From IMG/VR virus record IMGVR_UViG_3300028172_000069: a DNA stretch of 64,000 bases; one strand, given 5' to 3'. Positions 24,908 through 31,457 of the stretch are shown piece after piece (within the stretch, counting starts at the first letter, position 1; each line of letters starts with the position of its first letter). Source of the DNA: a virus. Taxonomy: Duplodnaviria > Caudoviricetes. Under the pieces are notes generated by a model. It saw nothing but the letters and a program-made list of their open reading frames with translations. It was not told the origin of the DNA and ran no database searches. Position numbers and translations under genes: made by a program.

Positions 24908-25410
24908 GCCAAGATAAAGTATACCCGTTCAACGACCAGCTCCACCCCGAAGGGTTGTTCGCGGGTGCGATGCTCCCGGCACTGCCACAGATTGCCGTTG
25001 CGCTGTCTGTCGGTAAAAGCAACATGGTGCCAATTCGCATTGACGAGGACGACGTCCTGCATCTGGGCATCTTCGCGCAGACCAAGACTAGCCCGATCAC
25101 CGACATTGTGTTTCGCATCGAGGGTGATGCTGCACACGTCAAGGAAGCGCGTGAAGCAATCGGCTCGTTCGTGAAGTCGGTGGGCGAAAGCCTGCACGAC
25201 AGCGACAAGCACCTGTGCGTTCGTGAGGTGCACAGCCGATATACCACCACGGTGTTCTACATCGTCCGCTTCTACTTCAACATCGACTTCGATTGTACCG
25301 AGCATCCCGAAATGCGACTCGGTGAAGAAACCAGACCGTACCTGTGCCCAGTGTGCGGTGCAATGCAAATCAGTGGCGTTCCACATATCGCAGGAGATAA
25401 CCATGACTGA
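24904..25410 (+). CDS. protein with C-terminal Cys/His zinc-binding motif, paralog A
   Basis: DFDCTEHPE...YLCPVCGAMQISGVPH. Confidence 0.75.
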   Translation: MSQDKVYPFNDQLHPEGLFAGAMLPALPQIAVALSVGKSNMVPIRIDEDDVLHLGIFAQTKTSPITDIVFRIEGDAAHVKEAREAIGSFVKSVGESLHDSDKHLCVREVHSRYTTTVFYIVRFYFNIDFDCTEHPEMRLGEETRPYLCPVCGAMQISGVPHIAGDNHD

Positions 25411-25954
25411 GCAAGTAGACAAACTGGCAGTGTTCGCAGGCAAGTACACCGAAGCGAAGTTTGGCGAGCTGGACATTCCGGTGTTCCCGCAGACCGAGCA
25501 CATGAGCGTTGACTTGGTGAACTCCAAGAACGCCATCCAGCCACTGCGTTACAAGACTGGCGACATTGTGATTCAGGAGCTGCAGGGCGACGTTGCCGAG
25601 AAGCCTGTGTTCGACATGGTCTTCCAGTTGTTCGGCACGCCTGAGAACGTCGAAGCCAGCAAGAAAGCCATCGGTGACTGGGCAAAGGCCTGGGTGCCAA
25701 CGCTCGAAGCTGCAAACGTGCATCTGGCACAGCGCTACCTGTACTCGGACAACCCGAAGTACAAGAAAGGTGGCGAGGAGTATGTTGAAGGCGGTGTGCT
25801 GCGCGTGCTCTGGATTCGCCTGTACAACAACGCCGACTTCGACTGCACCGAGCACCCTGAGTTCCTCGGCGGCGAACCTATCGGTATGTATCACTGCCCA
25901 GCCTGCAACGATATGCAGATGGCTGGCATGCCGCACGTCAAAGACGAGGAGTAA
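25403..25954 (+). CDS. protein with C-terminal Cys/His zinc-binding motif, paralog B (start ATG 25403)
   Basis: DFDCTEHPE...YHCPACNDMQMAGMPH; AGGAG SD. Confidence 0.75.
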   Translation: MTEQVDKLAVFAGKYTEAKFGELDIPVFPQTEHMSVDLVNSKNAIQPLRYKTGDIVIQELQGDVAEKPVFDMVFQLFGTPENVEASKKAIGDWAKAWVPTLEAANVHLAQRYLYSDNPKYKKGGEEYVEGGVLRVLWIRLYNNADFDCTEHPEFLGGEPIGMYHCPACNDMQMAGMPHVKDEE

Positions 25955-25957
25955 CCC

Positions 25958-26350
25958 ATGGCCGTCATCTTGTCTGACGCACAGATGGCGATTATCAAGA
26001 AGGCTCTCCGCAACGCTGACACGTACGGGCTTAGTCTCGCACGCCAAGCGTTGGAGAGCTTGACTGAACAATCGCTGGAAACGCGCGTGAAGGAACGGTT
26101 CGAAGGGTTGGACAACTACGTGGACGAGGATGAAATCCGCACCATGTCGTTCAACCTCAGTCAGATGGAGCAAGGTTTAGACGGTGCGCAAGCTATCGAG
26201 GTGATGCTGGAGCACGTCACACCGGGCGCGTACTCGCCACAAGTGTACAGCGAAGCATATCGCCGACGCGAAAAGGGTGAGCGCAAGTTTACCCTGCCCA
26301 ACACAGACGAAGCCAAGAAACGTCGTGGTAGCGACGAAGAAATGGAATAG
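25958..26350 (+). CDS. hypothetical protein
   Basis: 130 aa, GAGGAG SD. Confidence 0.75.
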   Translation: MAVILSDAQMAIIKKALRNADTYGLSLARQALESLTEQSLETRVKERFEGLDNYVDEDEIRTMSFNLSQMEQGLDGAQAIEVMLEHVTPGAYSPQVYSEAYRRREKGERKFTLPNTDEAKKRRGSDEEME

Positions 26351-26387
26351 TGTGAAGTAGATAGACAGGAAGTTCTGGAGCTCGAAC

Positions 26388-27068
26388 ATGAAAGTACCAC
26401 CGTCCTACTTGGCGTTGCTGGAAGACATTATCGCAACGTTACCCGTAGACCAAACGCAACCCACCCACTACTGGCTGTACCGCGGTCGAGACTGGCCTAA
26501 GCTCTCGAAGCAGTTCCGTGAGGCCGTCGTACAGCGCAAAGAGACGCTGACGGTCACGCTGAAAGAGTTTGCCAAGCAGTACAAGGCCTACGACGTCTGG
26601 AGCGCGTGGCATCCACTGTCTGGTCTGATCTGCGAAGGCCTGATCTACGATTCGCCAATCGACGTGTGCCACGGCCTGTTGAACGTCGAGTCGTATCAGG
26701 AAGTCGAGTACGAGGGTGTCACCCGTATCGCGTGCAAACCCAACAAGCCTGCGAAGGCTGGTGCCAAGTTGTTTAAGGCATTGAAGACACTGCAAGACGC
26801 TGAGGCCTCGCCTGTCGAGTTCAGTGACTTCGTGCTGTCCCACTTTGAAATCTGGCGAGGCATGGGGTCCTCAGTGATTCGAGGTGAGCGCACTGCCGTG
26901 ATACCACCAAAGGTCTACGACACGGCGCTGGGGTTGTTTATCAGCACGCCAAGCGATAGACTGTACGAAATGCCGCAGAGCCTTGAACAGGTCACTGCAA
27001 CCGCTTTGTCTTTCGCGTCCGAGATTGACGCATCCATCAAACGTAGCCGCAATACCACTGGGGAGTAA
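26388..27068 (+). CDS. hypothetical protein
   Basis: 226 aa, GGAG SD. Confidence 0.75.
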
Positions 27069-27072
27069 CACC

Positions 27073-27384
27073 TTGAACCGTTCCGTCTATTCGTCTCGCA
27101 CCGCTGACAAATTCGTCGTTCGCCTTCCTGATGGTATGCGTGAGCGTATCGCCGAAGTGGCACGCAATCATCACCGCAGCATGAACAGCGAAATCATCGC
27201 ACGCCTGGAGCAAAGTCTCGTTCAGGAAGGTGCACTGGGCGACGAGCCGCAACTGCGCATGGATAGCCCAGAGCTGAGCCTGCATGAGCGCGAACTGCTC
27301 AAGTCCTTCCGTGCTCTGGACCCACGCAAGCAGAGCGCGCTCGTGGCACTGATCGCACCTGAGGGTGCAGTCGAGCGTGATTGA
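27073..27384 (+). CDS. amrZ: Arc-family ribbon-helix-helix regulator, phage homolog of Pseudomonas AmrZ/AlgZ (TTG start)
   Basis: [44 protein letters not shown] and [13 protein letters not shown] are near-identical to AmrZ as I recall it; GGGAG SD. Confidence 0.92.
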
Positions 27385-27487
27385 CCGCATCAATATGCTG
27401 GCCGTGTACATGCGTATACGGCTAGAGGAACGACGCCAGCGTAAACAGCGTCGGCGCGCCAAACGTGCAAACAAAAAGGCTCAGTGA
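27377..27487 (+). CDS. candidate 36-aa arginine-rich peptide
   Basis: [36 protein letters not shown]; GTG start overlapping amrZ end, fills the gap. Confidence 0.5.
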
Positions 27488-27506
27488 CGGTTGTCATTGG
27501 GCCTTT
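27475..27506 (+). terminator. terminator-like hairpin after amrZ region
   Basis: AAAGGCTCAGTGAC-GGTT-GTCATTGGGCCTTT. Confidence 0.55.
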
Positions 27507-27525
27507 CCTCTTAAGGAACTCGAAC

Positions 27526-27855
27526 ATGCAGATGAAGTACATCGTGGTGAGCGCTACCAATCGGGACCTTGAACAGGATTACGAACTGATCCTGTTGTTC
27601 CCGTGCGTCATTACCCACAAGAACTTCTTCGAGACCGTCTACCGTATGGGTCGCCAACGCCACGGTATGCGCATCGACGTGGAAGATGTTGTCAGTGCTG
27701 GATTCGTGCGCTTCGGCTCGGCAGGGCTTGAGTGCTACGGCGAGAGCGAATCACTCAACAAGAAATCGCGACCGATTGATACTGCCATTCTCCAGAACCA
27801 AAGCGAATACGCCCAGTCATCGCAGGTGAAATACCATGAACGTTTCCTCAGCTGA
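27526..27855 (+). CDS. phage hypothetical protein (start ATG 27526)
   Basis: TAAGGA SD; SAGFVRF...CYGESESL motif recalled from phage proteins. Confidence 0.75.
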   Translation: MQMKYIVVSATNRDLEQDYELILLFPCVITHKNFFETVYRMGRQRHGMRIDVEDVVSAGFVRFGSAGLECYGESESLNKKSRPIDTAILQNQSEYAQSSQVKYHERFLS

Positions 27856-28261
27856 GATTATTTGGTGTATCGTGGCCTTTCTGTTCTGCCGCGCGTACAT
27901 GCTCGCCACAACATGGATGCTGGTGTGCTCGACTGCTGGTGAACTGAGCCTGCACCGTATGGGTATCACGCAGGCGAACGCTCGCTATCTGAGCCTGTCG
28001 TACCTCGATTATGGCAAAGAGGTTTTACGGCACTTCTTCCTGCCACTCGCTGCATTCAGCCCAGTACGTGTCGGTGATGGTCGCTTGGTGGCGCACGGTC
28101 GCTGGGGCATGTACAAGTTTATGAAACTCCGCCACATCAAAGGTGACCCGATGGCAATCCCGTTCCGAGAGACAGTGCTACACGTCGGGTACCCAGAATT
28201 GCAAAAGATGCCGGGCGCGAAGCTCCGCATGATCGAAGACGGCTTCAAGGTAGAAGGATAA
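27836..28261 (+). CDS. membrane protein
   Basis: N-terminal TM IIWCIVAFLFC; AGGTG SD. Confidence 0.7.
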   Translation: MNVSSAEIIWCIVAFLFCRAYMLATTWMLVCSTAGELSLHRMGITQANARYLSLSYLDYGKEVLRHFFLPLAAFSPVRVGDGRLVAHGRWGMYKFMKLRHIKGDPMAIPFRETVLHVGYPELQKMPGAKLRMIEDGFKVEG

Positions 28262-28266
28262 GCACC

Positions 28267-29061
28267 ATGGCCAAGAAAAACCCACTCACCTCGTTGTTAG
28301 TAATGCTGCGCAAGCACTACACGAATTCTGTCCAGCTGGGCGTTGACGAGGACTTCATCTACTTCAACGACTCCAACGTGACGATCAAGGCGAATGCGCA
28401 CGGCCGTGGTGGTGTGACGTTGCAACTGGGCAACATGGTGCGGCATCACCGCATCCCGACGTACATCCTGGCGTCGCTCACTGCAATGCGTATCATCGAA
28501 GCACAGCTCCGTATCCCGTCGGATCACAACCCAGGCACTCGACGTGAGGGCATGCTGCGTACCTATCTGGAAGCTGTTCGCGCAATCCCAGGGTACGAAA
28601 AGGTGAAAGCCAAGATCGACCACAAGCGCAATCCAGGCAACGACATTGTGCTGGACTTCACCTTCGATGGGCGTGCGCTGTTCCGTGTCGACGTTGGCCT
28701 GTTTTCGTCCGATCTGGGTCGCACGTGCGGTCAAGGTGCTGAGTGCGCCACGTTCTTCTGCAACAACTTCGGCACTGAGTTTCACACGCTGGAGGAGCTG
28801 CTCAAGCTGCTCACGGACGAATCGCGTCCAGCACCACGTGAAGTGGATGCACAGTACGATGGCAACCGCGTGTGCTTCCTTGCAGACTCGCACTTCGCCA
28901 GCTCGTTCATCTACCTGACGGCCCGAGGGTACCGCAACTTCAAGGCCCACAAGGTCGTTGTCGCTGGACGAGTGGACAGCAAAGAAACGGTGATCGCCAA
29001 GTTCCTGAACAGCGACACTGAACATACCGTGTACGTAGGAGAAGGAACCAATGACTTTTGA
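28267..29061 (+). CDS. hypothetical protein
   Basis: 264 aa, AAGGA SD. Confidence 0.75.
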   Translation: MAKKNPLTSLLVMLRKHYTNSVQLGVDEDFIYFNDSNVTIKANAHGRGGVTLQLGNMVRHHRIPTYILASLTAMRIIEAQLRIPSDHNPGTRREGMLRTYLEAVRAIPGYEKVKAKIDHKRNPGNDIVLDFTFDGRALFRVDVGLFSSDLGRTCGQGAECATFFCNNFGTEFHTLEELLKLLTDESRPAPREVDAQYDGNRVCFLADSHFASSFIYLTARGYRNFKAHKVVVAGRVDSKETVIAKFLNSDTEHTVYVGEGTNDF

Positions 29062-29920
29062 AGAACAGCTAGCCTACTTGCAAGAGCGCTTTCCCGACAT
29101 AGAGTTTGAGGAAGGCGTGTTCGGCGACAAGCAAGTCGCGTACAAGAAGGGCTCGTACATCCGCTTTGAGGTGCTGCTCGGCAAGACCTTCAAACAGAAG
29201 ACTGGCACTCCAGTGCTGGTGGTAGGTGTAGGTGCGCAAAGCAAACTGGCATCGCGCCAGAACTTCGACTCCTGGTTTGAGCGCATGGTGCAAGCCAACG
29301 CTGCGGTCCGCAAGACGCAATCGCACCAGCGTCAGGAAATCAACCAGTTCGTCGAGAACCTACGGGAGTCGGACGTCTTCGAGCCTGCAGAAGTCGAAAT
29401 GACCATCGACGGCTTCGGTGACCATGCCAGCAACATCCCGCGCGTGGACGTGCGCTTCATCGGCGTGGAGACAGTGATCGCGTCGATTCGTTTCCTGCGC
29501 TACTCGCCTGCTGACCTGAACGGTGAAATCGAAGTGCTGTTCGGTGACGAGGTGTTTGAGTTTGACAGCGTGCCCAAGGTGCTCGACTTCTTCGGCGGCT
29601 GGGAAGTCTTCCGTCGCACGGACCGTCGCGTTGAAACTCACAAGGTGCAACTGCGCGCACACGGTCTTGGTACGATTGCCCTGGTACCGTACAAGGAACT
29701 CACCCTGTACGCACCGTACCTGCTGGTGATGCAAGCCAACGCATTCGCTGTCGAGCAAGCCAAGGTGACAGTAACTGCGGAAACCGAGAGCCCTTACGAG
29801 GGTGCGAACGTCACTGGCATCAACGGTGCACTGGCTGAAATCTTCACCCAAGAACAAACCCTTGCATACGTGTCGGCGGTAGTGGAACCGTCACTTCAAT
29901 GGGACTACAGCTTCAAATAA
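29051..29920 (+). CDS. hypothetical protein
   Basis: 289 aa, AAGGA SD. Confidence 0.8.
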   Translation: MTFEEQLAYLQERFPDIEFEEGVFGDKQVAYKKGSYIRFEVLLGKTFKQKTGTPVLVVGVGAQSKLASRQNFDSWFERMVQANAAVRKTQSHQRQEINQFVENLRESDVFEPAEVEMTIDGFGDHASNIPRVDVRFIGVETVIASIRFLRYSPADLNGEIEVLFGDEVFEFDSVPKVLDFFGGWEVFRRTDRRVETHKVQLRAHGLGTIALVPYKELTLYAPYLLVMQANAFAVEQAKVTVTAETESPYEGANVTGINGALAEIFTQEQTLAYVSAVVEPSLQWDYSFK

Positions 29921-29930
29921 GGAGAGACAA

Positions 29931-31457
29931 GTGGGAACTTACAACTACCTGCGTGGCGAAGCAACCATCAAGCCCGAACTTGTAGACGTGGTTAAGCAGA
30001 TCGTCGAGCGCGAAGACTACTGGCACATGCTGCCTGTACCTGAGCACTTCAAACGCCTGCACGCTTTCCATCTGCTGTGCCTCGCCGACCGCCATCGCTT
30101 CGTTCCTGGGGCATTCAGCAACGGCAACAAACAGGCACCAAGCTGGGACGAGCCGATCAAGACGCACCTTGAGGGTAACAAGCTGGTCTTCGGCATGTGC
30201 TTCAAGAACTACGACAATACGCAGGAAGCGTTCGTTGCGCTGCTTCCGCATCTGGCTACTGACTGGTGGGCTGAACAGGACTGGAGCGACGCCAGCTACT
30301 TCATTCCAGACCGTGATCAACCAGAGCGCTACATGACGCGCTGGAACAGTCACGAAGAAGGCAAGGGCGCTCCAGCCATCGACGTCCAGTACGTGCTCAA
30401 GGAAGCCGAGCGCGAGATTGAAGAAATCGCTGAGGTACGCCTGAAGAAGTCGTGCGTCAACTACGAAGGTTGGACCGGCGAGAGTGCGCTGGCCATGGAC
30501 GAAACGTACCTGCAGGATACGTGGCTACTGGGTATCGCACATTACTACGCCTCGCAGTTGAAGCAGAAAAAGCAGGAGCGCGAGGTCAGACGCCCAACGC
30601 CGCTCCTCGACTTGCTCAACGTCATGCCAGAAGCGCTGATGGGTCAGAACGTGCGGATTGAGCGTGCGTCGAATCCAACACCTCCGAATAACAAAGGCTT
30701 CGAGTTCAGGACCACGCCGGTTGCTACTTGGCCTAAGCCACACCCGCATCAGATCGCAGAAGGTGAGCGTATTCGCGCCATGTTCGGCGACAGCGATATT
30801 GGCATGAACCCGTTTAGCCGTACTGTCATTGTGACGGAGTGTCCAGTTGACGAAATGCGTCTCGGGAAGCTGAACCTTCCAGATCATCTGATTAGCGCGA
30901 CCGAAATGCTCTCTGGTGGCATCAAGCCTGGGATGTTCTACAGCTTCTCCACGCCGCACTCGCCACGCCCGAGCATTGCCGAAACGTTCATGCGCAATGC
31001 AATGGGCGGCAAGTCCAACATAGCGCTGCGCTTGACACTGGCTCGCCTTGCCATCCTTGCAGAGGGTATGTCACCGCCAAAAGACGCTGAACCACAAAGT
31101 GGTGAGTCGCTGTTCGAGGCGCTGTTCGATTCATTCAGCAACAACCCGCCGAAGTTCTTCCTGGACTCGTACCCTGCAGGGTTGGGTAAGACAGGCACGG
31201 TGACTCGTGGTGTGCGTAGCTGGGCCGGTGAGCCAGGTCCTGCTGGTCCCGGTATCTGGAACATTGATACTGGAGCGCTACCACCTCCTGCAGGTGAAGA
31301 CCCGAGCACCAAAGACAAGCTGCAAGGGCTTGCGTGGCAGCACCAGCAACGTGTCGAAGCGAAGGCGGCAGCTGCCAATCCAAAGTCGCGTCCATCCAAG
31401 CCCGGCGCCAAAGAAAAGCGTAAACAGCAGAAAGCAAGCCGCAAAAGGAACCGCTAA
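29931..31457 (+). CDS. phage protein with Lys-rich C-terminal tail (GTG start)
   Basis: TAAGGAG SD; N-terminal MG.Y...CFKNY domain recalled from jumbo-phage hypotheticals. Confidence 0.8.
   Translation: MGTYNYLRGEATIKPELVDVVKQIVEREDYWHMLPVPEHFKRLHAFHLLCLADRHRFVPGAFSNGNKQAPSWDEPIKTHLEGNKLVFGMCFKNYDNTQEAFVALLPHLATDWWAEQDWSDASYFIPDRDQPERYMTRWNSHEEGKGAPAIDVQYVLKEAEREIEEIAEVRLKKSCVNYEGWTGESALAMDETYLQDTWLLGIAHYYASQLKQKKQEREVRRPTPLLDLLNVMPEALMGQNVRIERASNPTPPNNKGFEFRTTPVATWPKPHPHQIAEGERIRAMFGDSDIGMNPFSRTVIVTECPVDEMRLGKLNLPDHLISATEMLSGGIKPGMFYSFSTPHSPRPSIAETFMRNAMGGKSNIALRLTLARLAILAEGMSPPKDAEPQSGESLFEALFDSFSNNPPKFFLDSYPAGLGKTGTVTRGVRSWAGEPGPAGPGIWNIDTGALPPPAGEDPSTKDKLQGLAWQHQQRVEAKAAAANPKSRPSKPGAKEKRKQQKASRKRNR

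What the first reader, a model, noticed from the sequence alone, without database searches (positions are those of the whole stretch)
27073..27384. Phage copy of the Pseudomonas global regulator AmrZ
The RHH domain is essentially identical to host AmrZ, including the K-x-V-x-R recognition strand. The C-terminal oligomerisation helix has diverged ([21 protein letters not shown]) and the N-terminal arm is shorter. AmrZ controls alginate, Psl, flagella and pili, and phage AmrZ homologs have been reported to repress type I-F CRISPR-Cas expression. It could change receptor display or immunity, or act as a dominant-negative. The sequence (DG, ER, RN) looks closer to fluorescens/putida-group AmrZ as I recall it, hinting at the host.
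Basis: partly seen in the sequence, partly recalled or inferred. Interest (0 to 1): 0.75.

Follow-up and report, generated by a model that had tools for sequence, protein, structure and literature searches.

The report
Full-length AmrZ copy in jumbo phage
A giant soil Pseudomonas phage related to PaBG carries a complete copy of the host master regulator AmrZ: its DNA-reading head is identical to the host's and its self-association tail has a changed surface, which makes it a real but already known kind of phage trick for reprogramming the host.

Summary
Window 27073-27384 (+) is a 103-aa gene with a TTG start and a GGGGAG ribosome site 7 nt upstream. A diverged relative has ATG at the same codon.

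The gene encodes a full-length AmrZ. Residues 6-49, the ribbon-helix-helix head, match the consensus of 110 non-aeruginosa Pseudomonadaceae AmrZ at 44 of 44 positions. This includes the K-x-V-x-R reading strand.

The C-terminal tetramerisation domain is homologous to the host's. It keeps every hydrophobic position. Nine polar positions carry residues found in none of the 110 host proteins.

The element is an uncultured PaBG-like jumbo phage of about 266 kb, found in soil metagenomes. The gene sits in the same slot as PaBG gp184. Borges et al. showed that gp184 represses type I-F CRISPR-Cas when overexpressed.

PaBG and most jumbo-phage relatives join the AmrZ head to an unrelated beta-rich tail. 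This clade keeps the host-type tail.

The capture is old: synonymous sites are near saturation. The gene is under purifying selection, with dN/dS of 0.08-0.18.

The donor and the host cannot be resolved beyond fluorescens/putida-type Pseudomonas. Function and expression were not tested.

This scan has already noted phage AmrZ mimics on other DNA: 71 notes in at least 57 genomes. Verdict: a new member of a known kind, of moderate interest.

The parts
27060..27065 (+). Shine-Dalgarno GGGGAG, 7 nt upstream of the TTG start and overlapping the end of the upstream gene (stop 27066-27068)
   Evidence: Read directly. Conserved in the relatives L118 and L119.
27073..27384 (+). amrZ-like coding sequence, 103 aa, TTG start, TGA stop
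   Evidence: Pfam Arc E 1.5e-26. 3QOQ E 2e-25. The same product is called on other assemblies. dN/dS is 0.08-0.18 among three phage variants.
27073..27087 (+). Short N-terminal arm (residues 1-5). It differs from the host sequence (K-Q-A-I) and is 3-5 residues shorter.
   Evidence: The part of the arm that is ordered on DNA in 3QOQ (Pa residues 10-17) is retained.
27088..27219 (+). Ribbon-helix-helix DNA-binding core (residues 6-49) with the reading strand K13-x-V15-x-R17
   Evidence: 44 of 44 positions identical to the consensus of 110 bacterial AmrZ. The roles of the contact residues are taken from PMC3325190.
27220..27261 (+). Linker (residues 50-63), variable in hosts too
   Evidence: Low pLDDT in the AF2 model.
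27262..27363 (+). AmrZ-type C-terminal oligomerisation domain (residues 64-97). It is predicted to be a helical hairpin (H70-80, H84-94). Hydrophobic positions are conserved and nine polar positions are phage-specific.
   Evidence: no intermediates among the top 120 homologs. (helices). (four copies: score 0.63 against a best control of 0.01).

Best explanation
This is a full-length xenolog of the Pseudomonas global regulator AmrZ. It is fixed in a clade of uncultured PaBG-like jumbo phages from soil.

Shown here:
- The gene is intact and under purifying selection.
- It lies in a long rightward gene block, immediately behind the preceding gene.
- It occupies the slot of PaBG gp184.
- Its DNA-reading head is residue-for-residue the host consensus.
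- Its C-terminal domain is homologous to the AmrZ tetramerisation domain, with a changed polar surface.

Inferred:
- During infection the phage makes its own AmrZ, free of the host's AlgU-dependent and autorepressed control.
- The protein forms RHH dimers and joins them through the C-terminal helical hairpin.
- It occupies the same GGC half-site operators as host AmrZ.
- This imposes an AmrZ-type programme on the cell. The programme would include repression of targets such as fleQ and motility genes, c-di-GMP and exopolysaccharide genes, the host amrZ promoter and, where present, type I-F cas genes.
- The outcome would be lower immunity and/or altered surface structures, to the phage's benefit.
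- The changed tail surface most likely alters which partners the protein associates with. It could keep phage tetramers separate from host AmrZ, or change activator contacts. It has not destroyed oligomerisation.
For: Identity and selection:
- Pfam Arc E 1.5e-26. 3QOQ AmrZ E 2e-25, 48 of 53 identical.
- Head 44 of 44 identical to the consensus of 110 host AmrZ, including the K/V/R reading residues and the equivalents of S13, R14 and R28 (residue roles from PMC3325190).
- Nucleotide identity to host amrZ is only 78-85% across the identical head, with dS of about 0.9 up to saturation. The identity is therefore maintained by selection and is not due to recent transfer.
- dN/dS is 0.08-0.18 among three phage variants that are 81-85% identical.

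Phage context:
- The tail protein is 62% identical to PaBG.
- The record is a virus record of 137,684 bases.
- The same protein occurs on more than 130 contigs of up to 266 kb.
- The region is collinear with the PaBG gp177-gp192 region, with the gene at the gp184 position.

Precedent:
- amrZ of PaBG, phi3 and JBD68 lowered Csy complex levels, and 5 of 6 mobile homologs complemented a delta-amrZ strain.
- Another phage RHH protein, Gp53, binds the fleQ, pslA and amrZ promoters.

Tail:
- All hydrophobic positions are kept. Nine polar positions are phage-specific (0 of 44 head codons against 9 of 34 tail codons; Fisher p = 2.9e-4).
- No phage variant reverts to the host residue at any of the nine.
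- The AF2 monomer model shows helices 70-80 and 84-94.
- Four copies of residues 58-103 scored ipSAE 0.63 against a best control of 0.01. In the tool's calibration, 20 of 30 solved pairs and 1 of 23 single chains reached the pass mark. The runs agree in at least 84% of contacts, and the partner's pLDDT is at least 75. My own alignment and four copies were used, so those counts hold only roughly.
Against: - No function was measured. DNA binding, regulon effects and the benefit to the phage are all inferred from identity and from experiments on other phage homologs, which were overexpressed from plasmids in P. aeruginosa.
- The tested PaBG protein has a different C-terminal domain, so its result transfers only for the head.
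- The host is unknown, and it is unknown whether that host has a type I-F system.
- Expression is not shown.
- A TTG start suggests modest translation.
- The changed tail could instead weaken or redirect oligomerisation, which AmrZ needs for both repression and activation (Xu et al. 2016, as cited).
Confidence: 0.55

Rival explanations
1. Dominant-negative poison. Because the head is identical, phage and host monomers co-fold into mixed RHH dimers. The altered tail then prevents proper tetramers, so host AmrZ activity is switched off and not imitated.
For: The head is identical to the host consensus, so mixed intertwined dimers are plausible from what is known of Arc-type RHH folding. The nine phage-specific tail residues sit at host-invariant positions. 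Seven of them (78, 81, 83, 86, 88, 96, 97) fall among the modelled interface residues. The AmrZ tail is required for both activator and repressor function (Xu et al. 2016, cited).
Against: All hydrophobic core positions of the tail are kept, and the tail alone is modelled to self-associate. That fits a working oligomer better than a broken one. Five of six mobile homologs complemented a delta-amrZ strain and did not antagonise AmrZ. No mixing test could be run.
Confidence: 0.2
2. The phage's own gene-expression switch. In this reading the protein is an Arc/Mnt-like repressor acting on operators in the phage genome, for example for temporal control, and the likeness to AmrZ only reflects ancestry.
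For: Arc-family RHH proteins are classical phage repressors. PHROG hits are to Arc-like transcriptional regulators. The gene lies inside a long block of early/middle-looking small genes.
Against: A private regulator and its operators would be free to drift together. Here the head stays 44 of 44 identical to the host consensus despite near-saturated synonymous change. The amrZ1-type pattern GGC-WWWWN-GCC occurs once in the 64-kb window against 1.12 expected, though the motif is degenerate, so this is weak. The gene has no upstream intergenic region of its own that could hold an autoregulatory operator.
Confidence: 0.15
3. RHH antitoxin or ParG-like partition protein, as some database names suggest ('plasmid stability protein', 'partition protein').
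For: Source names and PHROG descriptions say so. There is a weak FitA-like RHH hit below the Pfam cut-off. A small conserved ORF overlaps the 3' end of the gene.
Against: The protein is 75-84% identical along its whole length to chromosomal AmrZ, tail included. The flanking genes have no toxin or ParA family hit. The downstream ORF is a 30-36-aa arginine/lysine-rich peptide that matches no toxin family I know.
Confidence: 0.03

Closest known systems
Chromosomal AmrZ (AlgZ) of Pseudomonas; P. aeruginosa PA3385, structure 3QOQ (residues 1-66 on the amrZ1 operator)
   Same: It has the same three-part layout of N-terminal arm, RHH head and C-terminal oligomerisation domain. The head is 44 of 44 identical to the non-aeruginosa consensus and 48 of 53 identical to 3QOQ. 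The tail shares the [13 protein letters not shown] block and all hydrophobic positions.
   Different: It is encoded in a phage operon without the AlgU-dependent, autorepressed amrZ promoter. The arm is 3-5 residues shorter. Nine tail positions carry residues absent from 110 host proteins. It sits on a long separate branch in the tree, with a stem of about 0.9 changes per site against a host median tip length of 0.017.
PaBG gp184 (amrZ_PaBG), tested by Borges et al. (bioRxiv 10.1101/673095; later Nature Microbiology 2020, the latter from my own knowledge)
   Same: It lies in the same genomic slot of a related jumbo phage. It has the same AmrZ-type head with the D-G and E-R signature.
   Different: gp184 has 138 aa, and its roughly 85 C-terminal residues are unrelated to AmrZ. 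They are beta-rich, as in most jumbo-phage relatives. PaBG also has extra small genes on either side (gp183, gp185).
Other phage AmrZ-head proteins: phi3, JBD68, Noxifer, HRDY3 and IMG/VR jumbo contigs of 243-312 kb
   Same: They share a host-like RHH head, often with the host N-terminal arm.
   Different: In them the similarity ends near residue 50-60. Among the 59 viral loci left after excluding the 21 that look like host genes at provirus edges, only two others clearly keep an AmrZ-type tail: L141 (277 kb) and L142 (38 kb). In the 50,697-record phage collection, only 2 records cover at least 80% of the protein.
Gp53 of phage PhiPA1019 (PMC13650114)
   Same: It is a phage RHH regulator that binds host AmrZ-target promoters (fleQ, pslA, amrZ).
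   Different: Gp53 has 126 aa, is described only as similar to AmrZ, and also represses ftsZ. No sequence comparison was made here.

Membership tests
AmrZ (AlgZ) family of Pseudomonadaceae | Arc-type ribbon-helix-helix domain | tested here: met
   Pfam PF03869 E 1.5e-26, 92 bits against a cut-off of 20.4.
AmrZ (AlgZ) family of Pseudomonadaceae | Base-reading residues K18, V20 and R22, plus S13, R14 and R28 (P. aeruginosa numbering) | tested here: met
   K13, V15, R17, S8, R9 and R23 are present. All are invariant in the 110 hosts and in the three phage variants. Residue roles come from PMC3325190.
AmrZ (AlgZ) family of Pseudomonadaceae | Extended N-terminal arm | tested here: inconclusive
   The part that is ordered on DNA (Pa residues 10-17) is present. 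The first 3-5 residues are missing and residues 2-5 differ from the host. N-terminal truncations did not reduce amrZ1 binding in PMC3325190.
AmrZ (AlgZ) family of Pseudomonadaceae | C-terminal tetramerisation domain homologous to AmrZ residues 67-108 | tested here: met
   Alignment is collinear to the end. Residues 64-76 are identical to the host consensus, and F79, L82, A89, L90, V91, L93 and I94 are kept. A four-copy model supports self-association (0.63 against 0.01). Tetramer formation itself was not measured.
AmrZ (AlgZ) family of Pseudomonadaceae | Chromosomal gene under AlgU control with autorepression | tested here: not met
   The gene lies in a phage gene block, 4 nt after the previous gene, with no promoter region of its own. 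It is therefore a xenolog and not the host ortholog.
AmrZ (AlgZ) family of Pseudomonadaceae | Binds amrZ/algD/fleQ operators and regulates them | not testable with these tools
   Needs EMSA, reporter or complementation assays.
Mobile-element AmrZ homologs (Borges et al.) | Carried by a Pseudomonas phage or plasmid, with DNA-contact residues conserved | tested here: met
   PaBG-like phage. Contact residues conserved.
Mobile-element AmrZ homologs (Borges et al.) | Complements delta-amrZ and/or represses csy expression | not testable with these tools
   Shown only for other homologs.
PaBG gp184-type chimera (AmrZ head plus beta-rich tail) | Beta-rich C-terminal domain unrelated to AmrZ | tested here: not met
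   The window protein has the AmrZ-type helical tail.
RHH antitoxin / ParG partition protein | Adjacent toxin or ParA partner gene | tested here: not met
   The neighbours have no such Pfam hit.

The most novel reading that the evidence does not exclude
The nine phage-specific substitutions on the polar face of the AmrZ tetramerisation hairpin may form an orthogonal interface. Phage AmrZ would then assemble only with itself. It would compete for host operators without being diluted or controlled by host AmrZ, or it would repress without activating. That would be a natural example of a virus re-coding the oligomerisation specificity of a captured master regulator while keeping its DNA specificity unchanged.
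Probability: 0.25. Interest if true: 0.55.

Novelty: new member of a known kind. Interest (0 to 1): 0.33.

Why it matters
Phage copies of AmrZ are a published way for Pseudomonas phages to turn down CRISPR-Cas and rewire biofilm and motility control. This copy adds a natural comparison.

Within one phage lineage and one genomic slot, the same host-identical DNA-reading head is paired with one of two tails. One is a changed version of the host's own tetramerisation tail (this clade). The other is an unrelated beta-rich tail (PaBG and most jumbo phages).

Comparing the two would show what the tail contributes to hijacking a host regulon: self-assembly, insulation from the host protein, or loss of activator function.

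The head also suggests an environmental Pseudomonas host for an abundant, uncultured soil jumbo phage.

Tried and rejected
- Nucleotide search of the region against the phage collection found nothing. Only protein-level searches identified the PaBG relationship.
- Donor or host inference from a tree failed. Bacterial AmrZ proteins form an unresolved polytomy with tiny branches, and the phage clade sits on a long stem. When two long-branch viral copies are added, the clade nests only weakly (92/60 and 82/82) among fluorescens/putida-type sequences. No donor can be named.
- A family-wide genome search returned unnamed handles, so it gave no taxonomic breakdown. It showed only that 285 of 301 Pseudomonadaceae genomes have a match and that the listed matches reach at most 81% identity.
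- Expression could not be shown. Fourteen soil metatranscriptome runs hold the whole 6-kb stretch. The four that were laid hold single contigs of 22-146 kb covering it, at depths of 120-2900, and their longest contigs reach 234 kb. These are contigs and may derive from phage DNA in the RNA libraries, so they do not show transcription, strand or ends.
- A scan for amrZ1-like operators (GGC-WWWWN-GCC) found 1 against 1.12 expected. The published consensus is too degenerate for a meaningful genome scan.
- The sigma-70 promoter and terminator scan around the gene found nothing above the shuffle controls.
- Xu et al. 2016 on the AmrZ tail could not be read because it is not held. Its conclusion is cited second-hand.
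- A mixed phage/host tail model was not run because the single complex job went to the homo-oligomer.
- The AF2 monomer model is of low confidence for the head (mean pLDDT 66), as expected for an obligate dimer. It was used only for the positions of the tail helices.
- The in-frame upstream extension to the TTG at 26983 was rejected. It overlaps the upstream gene, lacks homology and is not called in any assembly.
- The antisense ORF at 27037-27474 was rejected as a shadow of the conserved + frame.

Full report
**What is there.** Window 27073-27384 (+) is an open frame of 103 codons that starts with TTG. It begins 4 nt after the TAA of the preceding 226-aa gene. GGGGAG lies 7 nt upstream. Two diverged relatives recovered from other assemblies (L118 and L119, 81-85% protein identity) keep the same Shine-Dalgarno and the same start position. 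L118 has ATG there and L119 has TTG. Independent gene callers report the same 103-aa product on contigs of up to 266 kb. A longer in-frame reading from 26983 overlaps the upstream gene and has no support.

**What it encodes.** The protein hits Pfam Arc (PF03869) at E 1.5e-26. It hits the AmrZ crystal chain 3QOQ at E 2e-25, with 48 of 53 residues identical. I extracted 110 bacterial AmrZ genes from named Pseudomonas, Stutzerimonas and related genomes and compared them column by column.
- Residues 6-49, the whole ribbon-helix-helix core, equal the host consensus at 44 of 44 positions. They include K13, V15 and R17, which correspond to K18, V20 and R22 of P. aeruginosa. These are the residues that read the GGC half-sites. 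S8, R9 and R23 are also present (roles from PMC3325190).
- P. aeruginosa differs from this consensus at three head positions (E-G, E-Q, R-S in place of D-G, E-R, R-N).
- The arm before Y-S-S is 5 residues long, against 8-10 in hosts. The part of the arm that becomes ordered on DNA is retained.

**The tail.** The protein continues to align with AmrZ to its end, unlike most phage AmrZ look-alikes.
- Residues 64-76 are identical to the host consensus.
- Every hydrophobic position of the tail is kept (L68, L75, L76, F79, L82, A89, L90, V91, L93, I94).
- Positions 77, 78, 81, 83, 84, 86, 88, 96 and 97 carry residues found in 0 of 110 hosts, although those host positions are 90-100% invariant.
- The contrast of 0 of 44 head codons against 9 of 34 tail codons gives Fisher p = 2.9e-4.
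- None of the three phage variants reverts to the host residue at any of the nine positions.
- Among the 120 best database homologs, the six phage-clade proteins share 16-21 of 21 tail residues with the query. Every bacterial protein that could be scored shares 10-12 of 21, and there are no intermediates.
- An AF2 monomer model places helices at 70-80 and 84-94, a hairpin with D83-P84 at the turn.
- Four copies of residues 58-103 were modelled with ipSAE 0.63 against a best control of 0.01. The runs agreed in at least 84% of contacts and the partner's pLDDT was at least 75. In the tool's calibration, 20 of 30 solved pairs and 1 of 23 single chains reached the pass mark. Those counts hold only roughly here, because my own alignment and four copies were used.
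- To my knowledge no structure of the AmrZ tail has been solved, so the pass is unlikely to come from memory. It is still a model and not a measurement.
- Seven of the nine phage-specific positions lie among the modelled interface residues.

**The carrier.**
- The window is part of a 137,684-base virus record estimated to be about 52% complete.
- Its large structural proteins match PaBG. The tail protein is 62% identical over its full length.
- The region is collinear with PaBG gp177-gp192, and this gene sits at the gp184 position.
- The same phage has been assembled many times at about 265-266 kb.
- It occurs in soil metagenomes and in soil metatranscriptome libraries.
- PaBG gp184 has the same kind of head, but its roughly 85-residue tail is unrelated.
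- A scan of IMG/VR showed that AmrZ-type heads are common in jumbo contigs of 243-312 kb. Many even carry the host N-terminal arm, but they are almost always joined to beta-rich tails.
- Twenty-one further loci are host amrZ genes, 19 of them at the very edge of a predicted provirus. Once these are excluded, only L141 (277 kb) and L142 (38 kb) clearly keep an AmrZ-type tail.
- In the 50,697-record phage collection, only two records cover at least 80% of the protein.

**Age and selection.**
- Across the amino-acid-identical head, nucleotide identity to host genes is only 78-85%, and synonymous divergence runs from about 0.9 to saturation. The identity is therefore maintained by selection and is not a recent transfer.
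- Among the three phage variants, dN/dS is 0.08-0.09 in the head and 0.10-0.18 in the linker plus tail.
- The gene is about as conserved as its neighbours.
- In a maximum-likelihood tree the phage clade is monophyletic (100/100). It sits on a long stem, while the bacterial sequences form an unresolved polytomy.
- With two long-branch viral copies added, the clade nests only weakly among fluorescens/putida-type sequences. The donor cannot be named.
- The head signature is also present in PaBG, which infects P. aeruginosa, so it is weak evidence about the present host. The soil origin fits an environmental Pseudomonas.

**How it most likely works.** Established knowledge:
- AmrZ binds as a dimer of dimers to GGC half-sites, and its tail is needed for tetramerisation and for both activation and repression.
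- Borges et al. found 14 mobile AmrZ homologs. Five of six tested complemented a delta-amrZ strain. The PaBG, phi3 and JBD68 genes lowered Csy complex levels.
- A further phage RHH protein, Gp53, binds the fleQ, pslA and amrZ promoters.

Inference: the phage supplies an AmrZ that reads the host's operators but escapes the host's AlgU-dependent control. This would push the cell into an AmrZ-type state that favours the phage, with lower CRISPR-Cas expression where that system is present and altered motility, c-di-GMP and surface polymers.

The changed surface of the tail points to a change in partner specificity. The phage protein may be insulated from host AmrZ, it may poison mixed oligomers, or it may lose activator contacts. 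I cannot distinguish these. A private role on phage operators is less likely, because the head has not drifted from the host consensus and amrZ1-like sites are not enriched in the window (1 found against 1.12 expected; this is weak evidence).

**What is not shown.** DNA binding, oligomeric state, any regulatory effect, the host and expression are all unshown. The RNA-library contigs that hold the gene are tens to hundreds of kilobases long and may come from phage DNA.

**Verdict.** The kind of element is published, and the ortholog in PaBG has been tested. This scan has already recorded phage AmrZ mimics many times on other DNA: 71 notes in at least 57 genomes, and those shown were mostly heads with swapped tails. 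This copy differs in retaining the host-type tail, with a changed surface on it. I class it as a new member of a known kind, of moderate interest.

Noticed in passing
window 27377-27487 (+) (GTG 27377, or ATG 27395, to TGA 27485-27487): An uncalled small ORF of 30-36 aa overlaps the end of amrZ and has a very basic tail rich in R and K. Its frame, stop codon and most residues are conserved in the diverged relatives L118 and L119, with several synonymous changes. It is probably a real micro-protein of unknown role.
   Followed up: partly
window 27487-27525 (+): A 39-nt stretch between the small ORF and the next gene (start 27526) is 100% identical in the window and L118. It is identical in L119 up to a one-base difference just before the start codon. 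The flanking coding DNA is only about 80% identical. The stretch is unique in the 137-kb record. It may be a regulatory or leader element.
   Followed up: partly
L143-L168 (IMG/VR jumbo contigs of 243-312 kb) and L002:3986-4402 (PaBG gp184): Most jumbo-phage AmrZ-head proteins carry a beta-rich C-terminal domain. Its recurring landmarks are W-x-P near its start and L-x-P-[FV]-x-[VI] at the very end. Many also copy the host N-terminal arm (M-R-P-L-K-Q-A-I) exactly, which hints at repeated exchange with host amrZ.
   Followed up: partly
L120-L138 (IMG/VR records, mostly 11-22 kb): In 19 predicted proviruses a host-type full-length amrZ lies within about 10-20 nt of the contig end. These are probably host genes at a provirus boundary. 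That suggests an integration site next to amrZ, or a systematic boundary-calling artefact.
   Followed up: no
soil metatranscriptome runs X7, X12, X17, X20 laid on window 25000-31000: Libraries labelled RNA hold the stretch in single contigs of 22-146 kb at word depths of 120-2900, and their longest contigs reach 234 kb. This indicates either very active infection or heavy phage DNA carry-over in these soil samples.
   Followed up: partly
G001:C28:1059056-1059307 (P. putida genome) and many genomes: Many Pseudomonadaceae genomes hold 2-4 matches to the query. One example is a second AmrZ-like gene 52% identical over residues 6-90 in the P. putida genome. Host paralogs of AmrZ with a similar tail therefore exist.
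   Followed up: no
L113 (record OQ572413.1, 'UNVERIFIED Pseudomonas phage Y12') 3001-3273: This unannotated 61-kb record encodes a 108-aa AmrZ of P. aeruginosa type with a host-like tail. It could be a temperate phage carrying host-like amrZ, or host DNA in the record.
   Followed up: no
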